Below, one piece after another: positions 15,001 to 45,582 of a stretch of 64,000 bases of DNA. The notes below the pieces were generated by a model, which saw only the letters and a program-made list of their open reading frames with translations, did no database searches and was not told the origin of the DNA. Every line of letters starts with the position of its first letter. The first letter of the stretch is position 1. Position numbers and translations under genes: made by a program. The stretch is from the IMG/VR virus record IMGVR_UViG_2974697560_000001. One strand, written 5' to 3'. The DNA is from a virus. Lineage: Duplodnaviria; Heunggongvirae; Uroviricota; Caudoviricetes.

Positions 15001-15167
15001 ACTTTTGGGTCGATTGAGACACGGTTATCTTACACAATGGATACTAGGTTCGATTCCTAGGGGTGCTATAAAAGGCGCTCTGTAAAGTCATCTCAGATGT
15101 GTGTGGTAGGATGACATAAGGTACTACACTCTCTCCGTTCTCGCCACTTACCTAAAGGACTTACATT

Positions 15168-15702: not shown

Positions 15703-15779
15703 TGGGGCGTATACCCTCACTCTGATAAAGTGTAGAAAGGTTAATCGGTTACATGTGGGTTCAATTCCCACCGTCCCAA
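15703..15779 (+). tRNA. tRNA-like element; T-arm and acceptor are clear, D/anticodon fold unresolved (possible GAT loop)
   Basis: acceptor TGGGGCG/CGTCCCA, T-arm GTGGG-TTCAATT-CCCAC, CACT-CTGATAA-AGTG hairpin. Confidence 0.3.
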
Positions 15780-17991: not shown

Positions 17992-18168
17992 CTTGTGGGT
18001 CGAAGATGATTGTTTATCTTCAAATCAGCGTGTTGGGGGTTCGAATCCTCCCTGGGGACTTCATTGTCCTCGGTAACTCAATGGCAGAGTAGCTGACATT
18101 GCCCGAATGGGCTAGACGATTGTCACACCTTATCCACATTACAAACAACTACTAACTAAGGAATAACC

Positions 18169-22734: not shown

Positions 22735-22806
22735 GCGGGTCGAAAGAGTAAGTCGGTTATCTTCCTTTGAATAAGAAACAGGTAGGTTCGAATCCTACGT
22801 AGCCCA
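22735..22806 (+). tRNA. tRNA-like; T-arm GTAGG-TTCGAAT-CCTAC plus a 9-nt-loop hairpin; acceptor unresolved
   Basis: canonical T-arm, other arms degenerate. Confidence 0.25.
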
Positions 22807-22849
22807 AGGCACGGGTGACTCCGACTCTCACCTATATATCCGCACTAGT

Positions 22850-23617: not shown

Positions 23618-25270
23618 ATGTCAAACGCACTTAACACTGCTGCCAAGGGTCTGAACAAGACTCCTCAGTCTCAGAAGGCTAAGGCAGGTCAGGTAAAGAA
23701 CAACGCTGGTGGATTCGTCTTCCAGGTTTCTGACCAGGCTCGCCTAGAGCGATTCCTGATTCTGGGTGTTGATGGTGGCACATATTACGTCAAGGAGAGC
23801 ACTCACGCTCGTTCCAACGTACAATTCCTCAACGAGATGATTGAGCGAGACGAAGCCTCTGTACTGAACACCATTGTGGACGTGTCCGTCAATGGTCGTG
23901 CATACAAGCAGTCTCCTGCCCTGTTCGCTCTAGCCTCTGTCATTGCCAATGGTAAGGACAAGCAGGCGGTCAAGGCGGTATTCAATCGTGTCGTTCGTAC
24001 AGGCACTCACCTGTATGAGCTTCTGAACTACCTTACTTCAATGAACGTTGGATGGGGTCGTTCAAAGCGAGAGATTGTTGCTTCTTGGTTCGACCGAGAT
24101 GCTGACAAGCTGGCTTACCAGGCGGTCAAGTACCGTTCTCGTAAGTTTGGTGAGCAGACTTGGACGCTCCGAGACGTAATGCGTCTTTCCCACCCACGAG
24201 ATGTGAACACATCTGTTGCAGATTTCGTTCTCGGCAAGCCTCACGATGCTACCGATGACCTTCGGGTTATCGAGGGCTTCAAGAAGATGCAGAGGGCTCA
24301 GTCTGTCGAGGACGTTCACAGCGTTCTCCGTGAGTACGAGATACTTTCATGGGAGACAATCCCAACTCAGTTCCTCAAGGACGTGAGTGTATGGAAGCGA
24401 ATCTTCGCTAACGGACAGCTCCGTGGCCAGGCTCTTGTTCGAAACATCACTCGCCTTGCGCGAATTGGTGCTTTCCAGGACATGCGCTTTGCTGCTGCGT
24501 ATGCAGGACAGCTCACAAATCAGGAGATGATTGTACAGACTCGTCTGCACCCAATCAACTTCCTGAATGCGTCTGTCGTGTACAACGAAGGCCAGATGAA
24601 GACCGTAAGGGACCGCTGGGGCTTCGAGCGCGAGGAGCGTGTAAAGGACTGGACAACTGAGAGTGTTATTGCGGATGCCCTCAATGAGGGATTCCACAAG
24701 GCATTCAAGGCTGTCGAGCCTGCCGGTAAGCGAACGATGCTGGCTCTGGATGTATCAGGCTCCATGAGTGCAAAGGCTAACGGTCTCGACCTTAGCTGTG
24801 CTCAGGTTTCTGCTGCAATGTCTATGGCCATTGCTCGTACCGAGCCTGCTCACATCATCCGTGGATTCACGTCCAATGGATATGGCTGGTCTGGTCGCAA
24901 CAGTGACCTCACCGACCTTGGTATCAGCGCTAAGACAGACCTTGCTACGGCAATGCGTAATGTCCAGCGTCATAACTGGGGCGGTACGGACTGTAGCCTT
25001 CCAATGCGTTGGGCTCTGGACCGTGGAATTGAAGTAGACACGTTCATCATTATCACCGATAATGACACGTGGGCTGGTGAAATCCACCCATTCCAGGCGC
25101 TCAAGGAGTACCGTAAGAAGACTGGCATTCCAGCTCGTCTGGCAGTTCTGGGAGTTCAGGCAACTGAATTCACCATCGCTGACCCAAGCGATGCAGGAAT
25201 GATGGACTTCGTAGGGTTTGACAGCAATGCACCTCGCGTGCTGGCTGACTTCTCCGCAGGTCGCATCTGA
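23618..25270 (+). CDS. rsr: Ro60-related protein (TROVE domain) with C-terminal vWA/MIDAS domain
   Basis: GGFVFQVSDQARLERFLILGVDGGTYYVKE TROVE N-terminus; LALDVSGSM MIDAS; 550 aa. Confidence 0.85.
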   Translation: MSNALNTAAKGLNKTPQSQKAKAGQVKNNAGGFVFQVSDQARLERFLILGVDGGTYYVKESTHARSNVQFLNEMIERDEASVLNTIVDVSVNGRAYKQSPALFALASVIANGKDKQAVKAVFNRVVRTGTHLYELLNYLTSMNVGWGRSKREIVASWFDRDADKLAYQAVKYRSRKFGEQTWTLRDVMRLSHPRDVNTSVADFVLGKPHDATDDLRVIEGFKKMQRAQSVEDVHSVLREYEILSWETIPTQFLKDVSVWKRIFANGQLRGQALVRNITRLARIGAFQDMRFAAAYAGQLTNQEMIVQTRLHPINFLNASVVYNEGQMKTVRDRWGFEREERVKDWTTESVIADALNEGFHKAFKAVEPAGKRTMLALDVSGSMSAKANGLDLSCAQVSAAMSMAIARTEPAHIIRGFTSNGYGWSGRNSDLTDLGISAKTDLATAMRNVQRHNWGGTDCSLPMRWALDRGIEVDTFIIITDNDTWAGEIHPFQALKEYRKKTGIPARLAVLGVQATEFTIADPSDAGMMDFVGFDSNAPRVLADFSAGRI

Positions 25271-27865: not shown

Positions 27866-27942
27866 GGGTTTGATTGGTATGACGTTACGGAAAGCCGACA
27901 ATGGACCCGTAGCCGCAGAGGGTTCGAATCCCTCCAAATCCA
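27866..27942 (+). tRNA. tRNA-like, 77 nt; no canonical anticodon arm; a TACGG...CCGTA stem encloses 16 nt
   Basis: acceptor GGGTTTG/CAAATCC, T-arm GAGGG-TTCGAAT-CCCTC. Confidence 0.3.
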
Positions 27943-28302: not shown

Positions 28303-28356
28303 CTTTGATGGTAAACGCGATGCCATCGAATGCACACAGGGTCGCTCCCAGTGTGA

Positions 28357-28477
28357 GGAACGTAGTTTAATGGTAAAACCGTGAAATGCGCTGTCGAACG
28401 AGAAGTGCTGCCGAGCTAAAGGCGGGTCTTCTGCTAGTAGATAACAGAGTAGCAGTTGTCGGTTCGATTCCGACCGT
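28357..28477 (+). tRNA. interrupted tRNA-like gene: 5' half (acceptor + Gly-like D arm) and 3' half (T-arm + acceptor) separated by an insert of about 80 nt
   Basis: AGGAACG-TA-GTTT-AATGGTA-AAAC ... GTCGG-TTCGATT-CCGAC-CGTTCCG; acceptor complementarity 6 of 7. Confidence 0.3.
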
Positions 28478-28624
28478 TCCGCTAGCCTGCGCTAGATGCA
28501 GGAATGTAAGTCGGCAAGGGAGTGTACAATCCCAAACCGCATTTCTCAACGGCCTTGCAAGGGGCATCAAAGCAACAGGGTGAGAGTGTCTTGGCTGTTC
28601 CGACTCATAACTGGAACCTCCACA

Positions 28625-28695
28625 ATCCGTAGTGGTGAAATGGTATCACATGGCCTTGCCAAGGCTAAAGCGCGAGTTCGATTCTCGTCTACGGG
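28625..28695 (+). tRNA. tRNA-Gly (GCC)
   Basis: acceptor TCCGTAG/CTACGGG, D GTGA-AATGGTA-TCAC, anticodon arm TGGCC-TTGCCAA-GGCTA, T-arm GCGAG-TTCGATT-CTCGT. Confidence 0.75.
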
Positions 28696-28710: not shown

Positions 28711-28797
28711 TGGAACTGGCTGAGTCATGACCAGCACGCAATGGTGCGATAGCGGCCGATAAACCGTCAATTCTGGGTTCGAATCCCGGCAGTTCCC
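28711..28797 (+). tRNA. tRNA-like, 87 nt, class-II length; anticodon unresolved
   Basis: acceptor GGAACTG/CAGTTCC (exact), D-like GCTG-AGTCATGAC-CAGC, T-arm CTGGG-TTCGAAT-CCCGG. Confidence 0.3.
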
Positions 28798-30742: not shown

Positions 30743-30899
30743 GCTGGAACGCCAAAGCTCGTATACAGGGCACGGATAAAGTCAAAGGGTAGCGTACGTA
30801 TTCTAGATACTATGTGCGTGAGAGTATGATACTAATCCCGGATTAACCGGCAACGTTCCACCAACTTGACACTCCAACTACATCTGCTAGGATGAACAC

Positions 30900-36425: not shown

Positions 36426-36497
36426 GCATGTAAGCCAGGGATAAGCTAGGCGGGCCTGTAAAGCCCTACCTCGATGGTTCGAATCCGTCTACATGCA
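36426..36497 (+). tRNA. second GTA-anticodon tRNA with a class-I 5-nt variable arm
   Basis: acceptor GCATGTA/TACATGC exact, loop CTGTAAA, T-arm GATGG-TTCGAAT-CCGTC; D and anticodon stems each have a mismatch. Confidence 0.5.
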
Positions 36498-38742: not shown

Positions 38743-38944
38743 CTCATCACCTGGGGATGCCTTGGTTTCGACTGGGGTGGATGACTTTAGTTTGCAGCCT
38801 GACATTGAGGAGATGTCATTAAAAAGCCTCAACCCTATAAATGCCAACTCTAAGTTCGCATTCGCTCTTGCTGCCTGACGGTAGCTGAGCGGGGCTAGTG
38901 GGCGGCCTGGCAACAGAATAGCCCACCACAAACTTTCTTGTAAC

Positions 38945-39018
38945 ACCCCTTGACACATGGCTGTGTATAGACTACTGTTTGAAGCATCAGGACGCGGGTT
39001 CGACTCCCGCCATCTCCA
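38945..39018 (+). tRNA. tRNA-like: T-arm GCGGG-TTCGACT-CCCGC plus a 3' tail, 5' acceptor unresolved
   Basis: orphan T-arm upstream of the next CDS. Confidence 0.2.
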
Positions 39019-39039
39019 CTTCCTATTAAGGAGTAAAAA

Positions 39040-41699: not shown

Positions 41700-41750
41700 T
41701 ATTCGACTATTGACAACCAGCTTAGCTCCACGTTAGGCTGGTTGTCGCAT

Positions 41751-41884
41751 GCCGGGGAAGTTCTTTGGTAAGAACAGTCTCTCTATAGTGTTCATTTGAC
41801 TGTGCACGGTCTCTTGACACCTCCTAGTAGCGCTGCTAGGATGACAGAGTAGAAAGGTTGGAGGTTCGATTCCTCCCTCTGGCA
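41751..41884 (+). tRNA. interrupted tRNA-like gene: canonical 5' acceptor + D arm, an insert of about 80 nt containing a promoter-like motif, then T-arm + 3' acceptor
   Basis: GCCGGGG-AA-GTTC-TTTGGTAA-GAAC ... GGAGG-TTCGATT-CCTCC-CTCTGGC; acceptor pairs 7 of 7 with two G-U. Confidence 0.3.
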
Positions 41885-41941
41885 CTTAAGACTTGGCCCC
41901 AAGAGGCAACCGATGGTCACCGGGATGCATACCGCCCATTG

Positions 41942-42023
41942 GACCTTATCTAGGTACCACGTCTATGCAATCGACGGATTGAGCACATAGACAATGGGGT
42001 AGGTTCAAATCCTACTGGGGTCC
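41942..42023 (+). tRNA. tRNA-like, 82 nt: paired acceptor and T-arm, with an internal 7-bp hairpin instead of canonical D/anticodon arms
   Basis: acceptor GACCTTA/TGGGGTC, T-arm GTAGG-TTCAAAT-CCTAC. Confidence 0.25.
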
Positions 42024-42120
42024 ACTATGTTGGAAACTATTCATTCGAAGAGTGGAAGGAGCGTAATGATTTACGACCCTGGTTAGTGTAACTACACTAA
42101 CTTTGAAGGAGTGAATTATT

Positions 42121-43041: not shown

Positions 43042-44142
43042 ATGAAGTTCACCAAGATTTTCTCTCAGGACTTGCTTGACCAGATGGTCAACGAGGGCTT
43101 TGTTCGGGTGCAGACTCATCCGGTTCTCCCTCTGCGAATCCTGAACTACTCCGAGAAGGCGCAGTTCGCTGGCAAGTGGAACGCATGTACGCTTGCTTGT
43201 CGTGGCCTTATCATTGACGAGTTTGACAACGTCATTGCTCGTCCGTTTGAGAAGTTCTTCAACATGGGGGACTCTCATGCTGCTGACATTGACTGGAACG
43301 CTCCGGTTGAGGTTACGGACAAGAAGGACGGCTCTATGGGCATCCTTTACTCCGTAATGCCTTACAGTGACGCGATTCCGCCTTACGGATTCCAGTACGG
43401 AATTGCTACGCGAGGCTCTTTCCAGTCTGACCAGGCAATCCACGCCACGAAGCTGTGGCTGGAGCGCTACAAGAACACTGCCGTCCCTCACGACTGGACG
43501 TTCATTTTCGAGATTGTCTACCCTGACAACCGAATCGTCCTGGACTACGGGGACATGGATGACCTTATCCTTCTGGGTGCGGTAAACAAGGAGCACGGCT
43601 ACGTGTATGGTCCTCGTGAGGCTTCGGTTTTGCTGGATTGGCAGGGGCCGGTGACCGAGGTGTTTGATTACAAGAACATTCACGAGGCTGTTGGTGCGGA
43701 CTACCGTCCCAACGCTGAGGGTCTTGTAATCCGCTCTGGCTCTAAGATGGTCAAGCTAAAGCAGGCTGACTATGTTGAGCTGCACCGACTGATTTCAATG
43801 CTTTCAGAGCGCTCTGTATGGAGTCAGCTCACTGAGGGCAAGACGATTCTGGAGATTTGTGAGGCTCTGCCTGACGAGTTCCACCAGTTCGTCAAGGATG
43901 TCGGTGGCAAGCTGCTCAGCGACTACGAGGAGATTGAAATTAAGGTGCGTGGAATCTTCCACAACCTTCTTTCCTCAATGGATGAGGGCTTCACACGACG
44001 TGACTTCGCAATGAAGGCCAACGGTGTGGACCTCTACCGTAGCCACATGTTCAACCTGCTTGACGGCAAGAGCATCGATGAGCTAATCTGGAAGCAGCTC
44101 AAGCCCGCTGCAAAGACGGAGGATGGCTACCCTGTTGGGTAG
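43042..44142 (+). CDS. RNA ligase, T4 Rnl1 (RnlA)-like
   Basis: CRGLIIDEFDNVIARPFEKFFNMGD aligns to the Rnl1 N-terminal signature; TDKKDGSMG is a KxDG adenylation motif; 366 aa. Confidence 0.8.
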   Translation: MKFTKIFSQDLLDQMVNEGFVRVQTHPVLPLRILNYSEKAQFAGKWNACTLACRGLIIDEFDNVIARPFEKFFNMGDSHAADIDWNAPVEVTDKKDGSMGILYSVMPYSDAIPPYGFQYGIATRGSFQSDQAIHATKLWLERYKNTAVPHDWTFIFEIVYPDNRIVLDYGDMDDLILLGAVNKEHGYVYGPREASVLLDWQGPVTEVFDYKNIHEAVGADYRPNAEGLVIRSGSKMVKLKQADYVELHRLISMLSERSVWSQLTEGKTILEICEALPDEFHQFVKDVGGKLLSDYEEIEIKVRGIFHNLLSSMDEGFTRRDFAMKANGVDLYRSHMFNLLDGKSIDELIWKQLKPAAKTEDGYPVG

Positions 44143-44305
44143 CCTCCCATAACAAGGAGAATAAATTGTCTGACGCCACTCGCACTGCCGATGAGGCTGT
44201 TTCAAATGCTAAGCTCATTGGCATGGCTGTTTGGTCTTGGCTGAGTTCCCATCCTGCGGTTCTCGCCATTCTGTTCTTCGTACTTGGCTTCATGATTGGC
44301 TAAGC

Positions 44306-44485
44306 ATGAGGAATGTATTTAGGGCGGCAGCCCAAAAGGCTGTACGCGAAGGTATATGTACCCCAGTCATAGGCTGTGGTCAGCCTATTCGAGATGAGGA
44401 TTTCAATGACGAAGAGTCTTTGCGAGAGTCCCGTATCTCAGGTCTCTGTCAGTCCTGTCAAGATAGGATTTACGGAGACCTCTGA
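44306..44485 (+). CDS. small Cys-containing hypothetical protein
   Basis: ATG-initiated C-terminal part of listed ORF 44231..44485. Confidence 0.35.
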   Translation: MRNVFRAAAQKAVREGICTPVIGCGQPIRDEDFNDEESLRESRISGLCQSCQDRIYGDL

Positions 44486-44589
44486 GGTCAGGATGGGCGA
44501 AGAGGCATTTCGATGCTCATCCTGTCAATATCAGTTTCCGTACCATTCGGATGACTGTCCGTACAACATGAACAACCAGAAGTAGCAAA

Positions 44590-44612
44590 AGGGCCCTTCG
44601 GGGCCCTTTTTG
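44590..44612 (+). terminator. rho-independent terminator AAGGGCCC-TTCG-GGGCCCTT-TTT
   Basis: read directly. Confidence 0.8.
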
Positions 44613-44620
44613 CGTAGGGG

Positions 44621-44649
44621 TTGACGCGGCCTGTCTGTTCGACTAGAGT
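44621..44649 (+). promoter_or_regulatory. promoter TTGACG-N17-TAGAGT(AGAG)
   Basis: recurring motif copy, directly upstream of the kinase/phosphatase gene. Confidence 0.6.
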
Positions 44650-44676
44650 AGAGCTAACAACAACGAAGGGAAAGAC

Positions 44677-45582
44677 ATGGCAACGCTTCTCATTCTCCGG
44701 GGTGTCCCTGGATGTGGTAAGAGCACTTTCGCCCATCAGTGGCTCATGGAGGGCGAGCGACGTGCCCGTGTAAACCGTGATGACATCCGTATGCAGTTCT
44801 TCGGCAAGGAGACTGGTGTGGATGAGAACATGGTTACACAAATTGAGCATATGCAGGTTGACAGTCTGCTTAAGGCTGGATACTCTGTGGTGGTCGATGA
44901 CACGAACATCCGCCACGCTTACATCAAGGCTTTCGTCAAGATTGCCAGTAAGCATGGTGTGCCTGTTGCGGTAAAGCAGTTCGATGTGGACCTCAAGGTT
45001 GCCATTGAGCGCAATGCTGGCCGGGCGGCACAGGGTGGTCGTGACGTTCCTACTCCTGTCATTGAGAAGATGCACAAGTCTCTCAAGTCAAGTGGACAGT
45101 TCACGCGCAAGCTGATTGAGGAAAGCTACTGTAGCTCTCCTGTTGGCAAGCCTTACGTTCGGCCGGTAGGCAAGCGGAAGATTTACCTCTTTGACATTGA
45201 TGGTACTCTTGCCAGCATGTCTGACAGGTCTCCGTTTGACTGGTCTCGCGTAGGAGAGGATGACCCTCGTAGGCAGGTCGTACTAACTGCTCAGGCACTC
45301 GCAGAGGCAGGTTACGACATTGTAGTTATGAGTGGTCGTGACTCTAGCTGCCGTGAAGAAACAATCGCTTGGCTGGAGTTCTACGATGTTCCTTTCTGTG
45401 ACCTCTTCATGAGGGCAGAGGGTGACATGCGTAAGGACAACATCGTCAAGCAGGAATTGTTTGACCAGCACATCCGTGACTTCTACGATGTTGTGGCCGT
45501 CTTTGACGACCGCCAGCAAGTAGTTGACATGTGGCGTGACATGGGCGTAGACTGCTTCCAGGTTGCGCCTGGAGATTTCTGA
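44677..45582 (+). CDS. polynucleotide 5'-kinase/3'-phosphatase (T4 Pnk-like)
   Basis: N-terminal GVPGCGKST P-loop kinase; C-terminal IYLFDIDGTL HAD DxDGT phosphatase. Confidence 0.8.
   Translation: MATLLILRGVPGCGKSTFAHQWLMEGERRARVNRDDIRMQFFGKETGVDENMVTQIEHMQVDSLLKAGYSVVVDDTNIRHAYIKAFVKIASKHGVPVAVKQFDVDLKVAIERNAGRAAQGGRDVPTPVIEKMHKSLKSSGQFTRKLIEESYCSSPVGKPYVRPVGKRKIYLFDIDGTLASMSDRSPFDWSRVGEDDPRRQVVLTAQALAEAGYDIVVMSGRDSSCREETIAWLEFYDVPFCDLFMRAEGDMRKDNIVKQELFDQHIRDFYDVVAVFDDRQQVVDMWRDMGVDCFQVAPGDF

What the first reader, a model, noticed from the sequence alone, without database searches (positions are those of the whole stretch)
41751..41884. Second interrupted tRNA-like locus with a promoter-like motif inside the insert
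GCCGGGG-AA-GTTC-TTTGGTAA-GAAC-A is a perfect acceptor + D arm. After about 80 nt comes GGAGG-TTCGATT-CCTCC-CTCTGGC, and the acceptor pairs 7 of 7 (two G-U). The insert holds TTGACA-N17-TAGGAT and GCTAGGATGACAGAGTAG, which is shared with the 28357 locus. A repeated element inserted into tRNA genes (for example a small mobile or promoter-bearing cassette) is one explanation.
Basis: seen in the sequence. Interest (0 to 1): 0.65.

Follow-up and report, generated by a model that had tools for sequence, protein, structure and literature searches.

The report
tRNA-shaped phage RNA with swapped arm
This is not a broken tRNA gene but a conserved, unannotated small RNA of Streptomyces phages that keeps the tRNA shape and carries two hairpins (which also read as a promoter) in place of the anticodon loop; it joins the little-understood tRNA mimics that phages encode beside RNA-repair genes.

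Summary
The window is Streptomyces phage Samisti12. Positions 41751-41884 have a 7-bp acceptor stem, a D arm and a T arm. They score above Rfam's tRNA threshold, with 72 nt where the anticodon loop should be.

Sixteen distinct variants from related phages and soil metagenomes show covariation in every helix, including a 7-9 bp extended "anticodon" stem and two insert hairpins. Selection therefore maintains the whole 134-nt RNA. No empty allele exists, and removing the insert does not restore an anticodon arm.

The locus at 28356 is a different tRNA-shaped RNA. It shares only a 22-nt stretch with this one, and only in the Samisti lineage.

The promoter-like TTGACA-17-TAGGAT is kept in all 16 variants and matches the phage's own abundant promoter type. 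It may be a real nested promoter.

A third such RNA lies directly downstream (41895-42023). The phage also encodes a Ro60 protein, a YrlA-like Y RNA, and T4-type RNA ligase and kinase.

Best reading: a stable tRNA-mimic non-coding RNA on a tRNA scaffold. Its partner and function are untested. It is a new variant of a known kind.

The parts
41710..41739 (+). Upstream promoter of the RNA: TTGACA (41710-41715), 18-nt spacer, TAGGCT (41734-41739). It ends 11 nt before the RNA's 5' end.
   Evidence: Read. It belongs to the TTGAC[AG]-N16-19-TAnnnT class found 52 times on the + strand and once on the - strand of the window. The same arrangement is seen upstream of the element in relatives. Function as a promoter is inferred.
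41712..41746 (+). Inverted repeat GACAACCAGC ... GCTGGTTGTC overlapping the upstream promoter. It may be the hairpin/terminator of the upstream gene, or an operator.
   Evidence: The arms change in a compensatory way in Wofford, Yaboi and L181 (GACAGCCAGC/GCTGGCTGTC). Coruscant has a different inverted repeat at the same place.
41751..41884 (+). The tRNA-shaped RNA ('B'), 134 nt. Acceptor 41751-41757 with 41877-41883; D arm 41760-41775; variable loop 41855-41859; T arm 41860-41876; discriminator A at 41884.
   Evidence: Rfam tRNA 32.8 bits. Covariation in acceptor, D and T helices. One copy per phage at 88-160 bits with model R1.
41778..41853 (+). Expanded 'anticodon' arm. The extended stem is 41778-41784 paired with 41846-41853 (3 bp, bulged U, 4 bp), closing a three-way junction.
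   Evidence: The stem sequences differ completely between variants yet still pair: UCUCUCU/AGAGUAGA, CCGCUCU/AGAGAUGG, UCCUUAU/AUAAGGA, UCCAAGUCA/UGACAAGGA, CCCGGUGU/ACACAGGG.
41788..41820 (+). Hairpin P1 of the insert. The apex U-GUGCAC-G is invariant (UGCA tetraloop, or an 8-nt loop with a 6-nt palindrome).
   Evidence: In the distal helix, 3 of 5 pairs change on both sides, with many G-U intermediates. GTGCAC is invariant in 14 of 14 sequences.
41822..41841 (+). Hairpin P2 of the insert: UCCUAGUA-GCGC-UGCUAGGA. The 16-nt core CUAGUAGCGCUGCUAG is invariant.
   Evidence: The two outer pairs covary (C-G to U-A or U-G), the inner six are invariant, and 100% of cells pair.
41814..41842 (+). Promoter-like motif nested in the RNA gene: TTGACA, 17 nt, (TGC)TAGGAT. 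A start here would fall near 41849, inside the 3' strand of the extended stem.
   Evidence: All 16 distinct variants keep TTGNNN-17-TGC-TA[GA][GA]AT. GCTAGGATGA is identical to the intergenic promoter-like site at 30866. Activity is untested.
41895..42023 (+). Second tRNA-shaped RNA ('C'), 129 nt, 10 nt downstream. It has no promoter of its own in this phage.
   Evidence: Acceptor GGCCCCA/TGGGGTC plus T arm. Covariation in 9 of 40 predicted pairs. Annotated tRNA-OTHER in Mildred21, where it has its own promoter.
28356..28482 (+). The 'first' locus ('A'), 127 nt. A different tRNA-shaped RNA whose arm carries invariant GCGAAAUGC and G[UC]CGAA.
   Evidence: Rfam tRNA 35.7 bits with a 74-nt insert. 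Found in 81 phage records and annotated tRNA-Thr in Sushi23. The proposed structure pairs in 100% of cells. Motif comparison with YrlA uses and PMC4201824.
23618..25270 (+). Ro60/Rsr ortholog. Context only: it is the protein partner of Y RNAs.
   Evidence: Pfam TROVE 6.5e-31 and vWA_Ro60 4.6e-59. Annotated 'Ro-like RNA binding protein'.
43042..45582 (+). T4-type tRNA repair genes 1.2-3.7 kb downstream: RNA ligase 1 (43042-44142) and polynucleotide kinase-phosphatase (44677-45582).
   Evidence: Pfam RNA_lig_T4_1 1.5e-14 and HAD_PNKP 1e-53 plus a kinase domain. Record annotation.

Best explanation
41751-41884 is a gene for a stable, non-coding tRNA mimic. It is one member of a family found once per genome in Samisti12-like (Boydwoodruffvirinae) Streptomyces phages.

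Shown:
- The RNA keeps the tRNA acceptor stem, D arm, T arm and elbow nucleotides.
- Its anticodon arm is replaced by a 7-9 bp stem that opens into two conserved hairpins.
- Every helix is maintained by compensatory change.

Inferred mechanism:
1. The RNA is transcribed from its own promoter, which ends 11 nt upstream.
2. Because it looks like a pre-tRNA, it is trimmed by RNase P and the tRNA 3'-end machinery and is protected from decay. This is the principle of the engineered 'tRNA scaffold'.
3. It has no anticodon loop, so it cannot decode. The tRNA-shaped part is the handle. The two invariant hairpin tips (U-GUGCAC-G and U-AGCGCU-G) are the working part and bind a specific partner.
4. I think it most likely acts as a tether or decoy in the phage's RNA repair and tRNA-defence system, in the manner of bacterial Y RNAs. 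That system includes Ro60, a YrlA-like RNA, T4-type RNA ligase and kinase, about 43 tRNAs and a tmRNA.

Secondary claim, about 45% likely: the DNA of hairpin P2 and its flanks also serves as a sigma-70-type promoter nested in the RNA gene. It would drive whatever lies downstream, which in this phage is the promoter-less RNA C.

The confidence given (0.8) is for the core claim, that this is a selected, functional tRNA-mimic RNA gene and not an interrupted tRNA. The tether or decoy role I hold at about 0.3.
For: tRNA body:
- Rfam tRNA 32.8 bits with a 72-nt insert.
- D loop with GG and T loop UUCGAUU are intact.

Structure under selection (14 sequences, MAFFT alignment not fitted to the structure):
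- 95.3% of cells pair, against 43-53% when partners are slid.
- 22 of 42 pairs change on both sides, against 2-6 in the slid controls.
- 0 of 500 shuffles reach the observed values.

Family:
- Exactly one hit of 88-160 bits per phage locus and in 3 soil metagenome contigs; ordinary tRNAs score 42 bits or less.
- 50 phage records, all Streptomyces phages.
- None among 185,579 bacterial and archaeal species genomes for the two-motif pattern.

Modularity: an identical payload sits in three unrelated tRNA-like bodies in closely related phages.

Own promoter: and it belongs to a class with 52:1 strand bias.

Nested promoter:
- Found and kept in 16 of 16 variants with fixed 17-nt spacing and TG.
- C has its own promoter only where B is absent.

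Context:
- Ro60.
- YrlA-like RNA at 18009-18123, 33.1 bits.
- Rnl1 and Pnkp.

Precedents:
- Bacterial and phage Y RNAs mimic tRNA and are RNase P and CCA-enzyme substrates (PMC4201824).
- Phage Ro60 binds phage Y-like RNAs (PMC12135203).
- T4 species 1 RNA (rnaC) is a 139-nt RNA of the T4 tRNA cluster with a T arm; the roles of T4 RNAC and RNAD are unknown (PMC3014915).
Against: - There are no expression, end-mapping or binding data, so promoter use, processing and stability are all inferred.
- In this phage B lacks the CGAA/GNCGAA motif used to recognise Ro60 ligands. It lies 16.5 kb from the Ro60 gene, whereas known Y RNAs lie within 4 kb (PMC4201824). A link to Ro60 is therefore weak.
- The element is dispensable. 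Several relatives carry only C at this position.
- Both invariant hairpins are quasi-palindromes in DNA and overlap a promoter-like site. Part of their conservation could be DNA-level (promoter or operator) rather than RNA-level.
- The generic promoter scan is not enriched over shuffles in this region.
- No antisense target was found in the window.
Confidence: 0.8

Rival explanations
1. First reader's view. A tRNA gene was interrupted by a small mobile or promoter-bearing cassette. The tRNA halves are a disrupted target, and the cassette exists to carry a promoter.
For: - The same insert module occurs in three unrelated tRNA-like bodies.
- The promoter-like motif is universally kept and resembles another phage promoter-like site.
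- The element is always directly upstream of variable downstream genes.
- There is a significant 22-nt match to the 28356 locus.
Against: - No empty-site allele in 50 records.
- The flanks do not form a normal anticodon stem and show no remnant of an anticodon loop.
- Both tRNA halves and the stem bridging the insert covary, so the halves are selected to pair in one RNA.
- There are no terminal repeats or target duplications at the insert edges.
- Model R1 does not see the 28356 insert as related.
Confidence: 0.06
2. An intron-containing pre-tRNA. The 56-72 nt insert is cut out, by a nuclease or by self-cleavage, and the halves are joined by the phage's T4-type kinase and ligase encoded just downstream. 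This would give a working tRNA, much like yeast tRNA splicing.
For: - Rnl1 and Pnkp lie 1.2-3.7 kb downstream.
- At a lowered threshold ARAGORN can draw a tRNA with a 56-nt intron and loop CU-AUG-AC.
- The junction nucleotides ...CU and AUGA... recur in several variants.
Against: - At ARAGORN's normal threshold with introns allowed, nothing is called here.
- The implied anticodon AUG (His, with A34) and the 9-nt variable region are implausible, and the body has no G-1 for His.
- The extended stem is 7-9 bp in all variants rather than 5 bp. There is no bulge-helix-bulge motif.
- No ribozyme or group I intron family matches at E up to 10.
- All 20 amino acids are already served by the phage's tRNAs.
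Confidence: 0.05
3. Mainly a DNA-level regulatory region. The two palindromes are operators and the TTGACA/TAGGAT pair is a regulated promoter. The tRNA-like flanks matter only as a processing signal or 5' stabiliser for the downstream mRNA.
For: - P1 and P2 are quasi-palindromes placed upstream of the -35 element and in the spacer of a conserved promoter-like site.
- Many promoter-like sites of this phage have inverted repeats in their spacers.
- The upstream promoter is also wrapped in an inverted repeat.
- In EGole the P1 apex is the exact reverse complement of the Samisti12 sequence, a DNA-type event.
Against: - The hairpins tolerate and conserve G-U pairs, which are mismatches in DNA.
- The extended stem and acceptor stem, which flank the 'regulatory' DNA, covary strongly. 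That only makes sense for an RNA spanning the whole element.
- The palindromes occur nowhere else in the window.
Confidence: 0.07

Closest known systems
Bacterial and phage Y RNA-like RNAs (YrlA, Rfam RF02553; partners of Ro60/Rsr)
   Same: - A non-coding RNA of about 110-130 nt built from a tRNA-like module (T arm, D arm, acceptor-like stem) plus a second module for a protein partner.
- Some are RNase P and CCA-enzyme substrates (PMC4201824).
- Encoded in phages that carry Ro60 (PMC4201824, PMC12135203), and this phage does.
- In Salmonella the Y RNAs sit in one operon with RNA repair genes (PMC7790460). Here B and C sit upstream of RNA ligase and kinase.
   Different: - Topology: in YrlA the RNA ends lie in the Ro-binding stem and the order is T arm, closed acceptor-like hairpin, D arm. 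In B the ends form the acceptor stem, the order is D then T as in a real tRNA, and the extra module is closed.
- B in Samisti12 has no CGAA/GNCGAA motif, is 16.5 kb from Ro60, and gets no YrlA hit at E up to 10.
- A separate, canonical-order YrlA-like RNA exists at 18009-18123.
Phage T4 species 1 RNA (rnaC) and species 2 RNA (rnaD)
   Same: - Small stable RNAs encoded in a phage tRNA cluster, of unknown role (PMC3014915).
- rnaC is 139 nt, with a canonical T arm (CCGGGUUCGAAUCCCGG), paired termini and two long internal hairpins.
- T4 also encodes Rnl1 and Pnkp (from general knowledge of T4).
   Different: - No sequence relationship: model R1 gives 13.8 bits, E 0.71.
- rnaC has no D arm, and its termini pair poorly.
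- rnaD shows no tRNA features.
tmRNA (tRNA-like domain with an inserted body)
   Same: The strand order matches: acceptor 5' strand, D region, long helix leading to an inserted body, T arm, acceptor 3' strand. The phage has a real tmRNA at 38753-39019.
   Different: - No G3-U70 alanine identity pair (B has C3-G70 and G4-U69).
- No resume codon or tag reading frame conserved among variants.
- No pseudoknots.
- No Rfam tmRNA hit.
Engineered 'tRNA scaffold' RNAs (recombinant RNA grafted onto the anticodon stem of a tRNA for stable expression in bacteria)
   Same: The design is identical: an intact acceptor, D and T core, an anticodon stem prolonged into a payload, and reliance on tRNA processing for defined ends and stability. 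The design details are from general knowledge; the approach is mentioned in the abstract of PMC3753655, listed.
   Different: B is natural, is conserved by selection, and its payload doubles as a promoter-like DNA sequence.
Intron-containing tRNA genes (bacterial group I introns; archaeal and eukaryal bulge-helix-bulge introns)
   Same: A tRNA-like gene with extra sequence at the anticodon loop. tRNA finders with the intron option call A 'tRNA-Thr', and C is annotated 'tRNA-OTHER' in some GenBank records.
   Different: - The insert is too short for a group I intron and matches no such model.
- There is no bulge-helix-bulge motif.
- The exons do not rebuild a canonical anticodon arm.

Membership tests
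Canonical tRNA (RF00005) | 7-bp acceptor stem, D arm with GG loop, and T arm with a UUCRANY loop | tested here: met
   (32.8 bits against a gathering score of 29). All three helices covary.
Canonical tRNA (RF00005) | 5-bp anticodon stem, 7-nt loop with U33 and an anticodon, and total length of about 70-95 nt | tested here: not met
   134 nt. A 7-9 bp stem opens into a three-way junction with two hairpins. ARAGORN does not call it.
Intron-containing tRNA | Removing the insert yields a canonical anticodon arm with a sensible anticodon that is conserved among relatives | tested here: not met
   Only a sub-threshold model, tRNA-His(AUG), with a 9-nt variable region. The stems differ in length between variants.
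Intron-containing tRNA | A recognisable intron type: a group I core or a bulge-helix-bulge motif | tested here: not met
   No Rfam family other than tRNA at E up to 10. The stem irregularity is a 1-nt bulge or mismatch, and it is absent in Anedea.
Mobile insertion in a tRNA gene | Empty-site alleles or multiple dispersed copies of the insert | tested here: not met
   One copy per phage. No uninterrupted allele in 50 records. The motifs occur nowhere else in the window.
Y RNA-like (YrlA, RF02553) | A tRNA-like domain with T and D arms | tested here: met
Y RNA-like (YrlA, RF02553) | GNCGAAN0-1G / CGAA motif for Ro60 recognition (PMC4201824, PMC12135203) | tested here: not met
   Absent from B in Samisti12. 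CGAA is present only in Coruscant-type variants. It is present and invariant in element A.
Y RNA-like (YrlA, RF02553) | Encoded within about 4 kb of the Ro60 gene on the same strand (PMC4201824) | tested here: not met
   Same strand, but 16.5 kb downstream of 23618-25270. Element A is 3.1 kb downstream.
Y RNA-like (YrlA, RF02553) | Module order T arm, closed acceptor-like hairpin, D arm, with the RNA ends in the protein-binding stem; a match to the Rfam model | tested here: not met
   The order is D then T, with the ends in the acceptor stem. No YrlA hit at E up to 10, whereas 18009-18123 does hit at 33.1 bits.
Y RNA-like (YrlA, RF02553) | Physical binding to Ro60 | not testable with these tools
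   Needs immunoprecipitation or a gel-shift assay with the phage Ro60 (gp126).
tmRNA | G3-U70 pair, tag reading frame with a resume codon, and pseudoknots | tested here: not met
   C3-G70. No frame is conserved across variants, judged by inspecting the sequences. No Rfam tmRNA hit.
Sigma-70-type promoter (nested, 41814-41842) | -35 and -10 hexamers with 16-18 nt spacing | tested here: met
   10 of 12 matches plus TG. Kept in 16 of 16 variants. It belongs to a strand-biased class in this phage.
Sigma-70-type promoter (nested, 41814-41842) | A transcription start about 7 nt downstream of the -10 hexamer | not testable with these tools
   Needs 5'-end mapping of primary transcripts.

The most novel reading that the evidence does not exclude
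B, together with A and C, would define an undescribed class of non-permuted tRNA mimics in which a true tRNA framework carries an exchangeable effector arm. Under this reading three things hold.
1. These RNAs work alongside the phage's Ro60, its Y-like RNAs and its T4-type ligase and kinase, as an RNA-based counter-defence or repair system.
2. B's arm is dual-coded: as RNA it presents two hairpins, and as DNA it is an active promoter nested inside the RNA gene.
3. The hairpin loops are 6-nt palindromes (GUGCAC, AGCGCU; in C, AUGCAU or AGCGCU), which could make the RNA pair with itself through kissing loops.
Probability: 0.15. Interest if true: 0.8.

Novelty: new variant of a known kind. Interest (0 to 1): 0.58.

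Why it matters
Phages with large tRNA sets are now thought to use them against host nucleases that cut tRNA. The extra "odd" RNAs in those clusters have had no assigned role; the roles of T4's RNAC and RNAD, for example, are still unknown.

This phage group offers a tractable case:
- There are at least three families of tRNA-shaped RNAs with swapped arms, in about 50-80 sequenced phages each. All have clear covariation.
- The same genome holds a Ro60 protein, a YrlA-like RNA and a T4-type tRNA repair pair.
- The RNAs are mostly unannotated. One is mis-covered by a protein annotation, and others are filed as tRNA-Thr or tRNA-OTHER.

If the arm binds a defined partner, it would show how viruses reuse the tRNA fold as a stable carrier. 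It might also supply natural scaffolds for RNA expression in actinomycetes.

A promoter nested in a structured RNA gene would be a neat example of one sequence serving at both the DNA and RNA levels.

Tried and rejected
- **IMG/VR scans with 14-nt motifs** (CGAAATGCNNTGNCGAA, TAGTAGCGCTGCTA) returned mostly random contigs. Only the hits with a T arm downstream were useful.
- **ARAGORN with introns allowed** gave merged neighbouring tRNAs, plus a weak tRNA-Thr model for A. It gave nothing for B at the default threshold.
- **Known ribozymes, riboswitches or other RNA families** in 41700-42050 and 28310-28625: none at E up to 10.
- **tmRNA-like tag frames** in A and B: frames and stop codons are not conserved between variants. 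This was by inspection.
- **Antisense targets** of A, B or C in the window: fewer 10- and 11-mer complements than chance predicts.
- **Origin of B's body from a canonical tRNA of this phage**: no close paralogue.
- **The two conserved palindromes as general operators**: they occur nowhere else in the window.
- **Host or prophage copies**: none in the species-genome collection.
- **Literature searches** for a description of these RNAs in Streptomyces phages found nothing specific.
- **Rfam on the Y-like elements near 15004 and 22735**: no hits.
Full report
**Source and setting**

The window is Streptomyces phage Samisti12 (MF347639.1). Window position equals record position minus 59894. It covers a long + strand region holding 42 ARAGORN tRNAs and a tmRNA.

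The finding lies in a 420-bp unannotated gap (41700-42120). The gap sits between a small ORF and four small ORFs that precede a T4-type RNA ligase 1 (43042-44142; Pfam RNA_lig_T4_1, 1.5e-14) and a polynucleotide kinase-phosphatase (44677-45582; HAD_PNKP, 1e-53).

**The observation**

- acceptor 5' strand GCCGGGG (41751-41757);
- D arm GTTC-TTTGGTAA-GAAC (41760-41775);
- T arm GGAGG-TTCGATT-CCTCC (41860-41876);
- acceptor 3' strand CTCTGGC (41877-41883), pairing 7 of 7 with two G-U pairs.

Rfam's tRNA model aligns 41751-41884 end to end at 32.8 bits (gathering score 29). It skips 72 nt where the anticodon loop should be. The locus at 28356-28482 behaves the same way, at 35.7 bits with 74 nt skipped.

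TTGACA-17-TAGGAT is at 41814-41842, with TG before the -10 hexamer. That generic scan finds equally many sites in shuffles of the region, so the motif alone proves nothing.

**Relatives and structure**

The element occurs in 50 phage records, all Streptomyces phages. It also occurs in three soil-metagenome contigs. I collected 16 distinct variants.

On a MAFFT alignment of 14 of them, not fitted to any structure, I named a structure with these helices:
- acceptor stem, D arm and T arm;
- an extended stem;
- hairpin P1 (two segments);
- hairpin P2.

The counts were as follows.

| Measure | Named structure | Partners slid 1-3 columns |
|---|---|---|
| Cells that pair | 95.3% | 43-53% |
| Pairs changed on both sides (of 42) | 22 | 2-6 |

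None of 500 shuffles reached the observed values.

The extended stem is the clearest case. Its two strands are unrelated in sequence between lineages yet always pair: UCUCUCU/AGAGUAGA, CCGCUCU/AGAGAUGG, UCCUUAU/AUAAGGA, UCCAAGUCA/UGACAAGGA, CCCGGUGU/ACACAGGG.

G-U intermediates are frequent in P1. An invariant U-G sits in P2. Both point to selection on RNA rather than on a DNA palindrome. The RNA spanning both "halves" is therefore the selected unit.

**What is conserved in the insert**
- The P1 apex U-GUGCAC-G is invariant.
- The P2 core CUAGUAGCGCUGCUAG is invariant.
- The AUGA that follows P2 is invariant.
- The spacing between the GTGCAC apex and P2 is fixed at 17 nt in the variants read.

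A covariance model of the family (R1) finds exactly one copy per phage locus at 88-160 bits. Canonical tRNAs reach at most 42 bits. The joint motif TGTGCAC-N15-19-TAGTAGCGCTGCTA is absent from 185,579 bacterial and archaeal species genomes.

**Is it an interrupted tRNA?**

No, for four reasons.
1. No record holds the same body with a normal anticodon arm.
2. With introns allowed, ARAGORN calls nothing at its normal threshold. At a lowered threshold it offers only tRNA-His(AUG) with a 9-nt variable region.
3. There is no bulge-helix-bulge motif. The stem irregularity varies between a bulged U, a bulged A, a C-A mismatch and a 2x2 loop, and it is absent in Anedea.
4. No ribozyme or intron family matches.

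**Is the insert a repeated element shared with 28356?**

Only in a narrow sense. In Samisti12 the two inserts share a 22-nt stretch: CTGCTAG(TA)GATAACAGAGTAG against CTGCTAG--GATGACAGAGTAG. It scores 28 against 14.5 +/- 2.6, with 1 of 2000 shuffles reaching it.

- In B this stretch is the 3' strand of P2, a junction and the 3' strand of the extended stem. The stem part differs in other B lineages.
- Against Yaboi, Anedea, Coruscant and Jay2Jay the similarity to A is at chance level.
- R1 scores A at 27 bits, like any tRNA.

What is modular is B's own payload. The same P1/P2 unit sits in three unrelated tRNA-like bodies: GCCGGGG..., GCCUGCG... and GGGCCCA.... These occur in phages whose RNA ligases are up to 95% identical. 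That indicates cassette exchange and argues that the payload is the functional part.

**The promoter-like motif**

The window has 52 TTGAC[AG]-N16-19-TAnnnT sites on the + strand and one on the - strand. Many lie just upstream of tRNAs. This looks like the phage's real promoter class, although that is inferred.

B has one of these ending 11 nt before its 5' end (41710-41739), so it looks like an independent gene.

The nested site is kept in all 16 variants as TTGNNN-17-TGC-TA[GA][GA]AT. Its GCTAGGATGA is identical to the site at 30866.

RNA C has its own promoter where B is absent, as in Mildred21. In Samisti12 it has none, and it starts 10 nt after B. A nested promoter, or read-through from B's own promoter, must therefore serve it.

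Downstream of B, different phages carry C, a HIT-family gene or small ORFs. I rate a working nested promoter at about 45%. Its conservation is confounded with that of the P2 hairpin.

**Neighbours of the same kind**
- **C (41895-42023)** is a 129-nt structured RNA with an acceptor stem, a T arm and two long arms. Nine of its 40 predicted pairs covary. It is annotated tRNA-OTHER in Mildred21. The 8-nt loop of its first arm is GAUGCAUA in one lineage and UAGCGCUG in another. Both contain 6-nt palindromes, as do B's two hairpin tips.
- **A (28356-28482)** is in 81 records. It has a long irregular arm with invariant GCGAAAUGC and G[UC]CGAA on one strand and two AGUAG on the other, a covarying helix UGYC/GRUA and a variable terminal hairpin. 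I read the GAA/AGUA pairs as possible loop-E motifs. This is inference only.

**Ro60 and Y RNAs**

The ORF at 23618-25270 is a Ro60 ortholog (TROVE 6.5e-31, vWA_Ro60 4.6e-59; annotated Ro-like RNA binding protein).

Rfam YrlA matches 18009-18123 at 33.1 bits. This is below the gathering score of 69, with E = 1.3e-5 in a 351-nt search. The match has the canonical order: GUCGAAG motif, T arm, closed acceptor-like hairpin, D arm.

Two further elements share GGGTCGA[A/T]...GTTATCTT...T arm, near 15004 and near 22735. The latter is about 700 nt upstream of Ro60. Neither gets an Rfam hit.

Published work establishes the relevant precedents:
- Y RNAs of bacteria and phages mimic tRNA, carry a GNCGAAN0-1G motif, lie within about 4 kb of Ro60 on the same strand, and can be RNase P and CCA-enzyme substrates (PMC4201824).
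- A phage Ro60 binds phage Y-like RNAs identified by a CGAA motif (PMC12135203).
- In Salmonella, Y RNAs share an operon with RNA repair genes (PMC7790460).

A fits several of these criteria: it is 3.1 kb downstream on the same strand and carries the motifs. Its motif, however, lies on the strand leaving the D arm, so it is not a simple circular permutation of YrlA. B fits only the tRNA-mimic criterion.

**Comparison with T4**

T4's species 1 RNA (rnaC, 139 nt) lies in the T4 tRNA cluster. It has a canonical T arm and paired ends around two long hairpins. It has no sequence relationship to B (13.8 bits). The roles of T4 RNAC and RNAD are still unknown (PMC3014915). It is the closest precedent in kind.

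**Conclusion**

B is a real, selected, unannotated tRNA-mimic RNA gene with an exchangeable arm. In effect it is a natural tRNA scaffold. That it is a functional structured RNA and not an interrupted tRNA I hold at about 0.8.

Its most likely role is a tether or decoy within the phage's RNA repair and tRNA-defence system. I hold that at about 0.3, and a direct Ro60 link at less.

The mobile-cassette, intron and DNA-only readings are each unlikely, at about 0.05-0.07.

Noticed in passing
window 41895-42023 (+): A second unannotated tRNA-shaped RNA ('C', 129 nt) lies 10 nt after the finding. It has acceptor GGCCCCA/TGGGGTC, a T arm and two long arms with covariation. Its first-arm loop is GAUGCAUA in one lineage and UAGCGCUG in another, both containing 6-nt palindromes. 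It is annotated tRNA-OTHER in Mildred21.
   Followed up: partly
window 23618-25270 (+): A Ro60/Rsr ortholog (TROVE plus Ro60 vWA domains) is encoded inside the tRNA array. This makes the phage a Ro60 / Y RNA system carrier.
   Followed up: partly
window 18009-18123 (+): A YrlA-like RNA lies directly after tRNA-Ile(tat). It scores 33.1 bits on Rfam RF02553, below the threshold of 69. It has a GUCGAAG motif, a T arm, a closed acceptor-like hairpin and a D arm in the canonical Y-RNA order. It is unannotated in the record.
   Followed up: partly
window ~15004-15080 and ~22735-22835 (+): Two more unannotated elements share GGGTCGA[A/T] ... GTTATCTT ... T arm with the YrlA-like RNA. One precedes a nucleotidyltransferase gene. 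The other lies about 700 nt upstream of Ro60. Neither has an Rfam hit.
   Followed up: partly
window 28356-28482 (+): Element A carries invariant GCGAAAUGC (compare the YrlA consensus cggCgaAUGC) and G[UC]CGAA. It lies 3.1 kb downstream of Ro60 on the same strand, so it is a candidate Ro60 ligand with a non-permuted tRNA topology. It is annotated tRNA-Thr in Sushi23.
   Followed up: partly
window 27866-27941 (+): A 76-nt tRNA-like element not called by ARAGORN. Its acceptor GGGUUUG/CAAAUCC gives a G3-U70 pair, followed by A73, which are the alanine identity marks. Rfam's tmRNA model matches it partially (30.3 bits).
   Followed up: no
window 15703-15779, 36426-36497, 28712-28796 (+): Further tRNA-like elements missed by ARAGORN. 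Two pass Rfam's tRNA threshold (30.8 and 32 bits). The third is an 85-nt element with acceptor GGAACUG/CAGUUCC and a T arm.
   Followed up: no
whole window, + strand: TTGAC[AG]-N16-19-TAnnnT occurs 52 times on the + strand and once on the - strand, often just upstream of single tRNAs and often with an inverted repeat in the spacer. One copy (38950-38978) lies inside the tmRNA gene just before its T arm, the same placement as in B.
   Followed up: partly
L015/L022 (EGole), equivalent of window 41798-41811: In EGole the P1 apex GACCGTGCACAGTC is the exact reverse complement of Samisti12's GACTGTGCACGGTC. The quasi-palindrome has been inverted, which turns a U-G pair into a C-A mismatch.
   Followed up: no
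L272 (Evy MK977711.1) 282-743: The annotated start (GTG) of the histidine-triad protein gene lies inside the B-family RNA. The likely true start is the ATG about 115 nt downstream (MNCVFCKIV...), which matches the Anedea protein.
   Followed up: yes
window 41712-41746, 28334-28355; L004 ~962-1000: A, B and C are each preceded by a hairpin or inverted repeat ending 0-10 nt before the mature 5' end. The arms covary between phages. It could be a terminator of the upstream gene, a processing signal or an operator.
   Followed up: no
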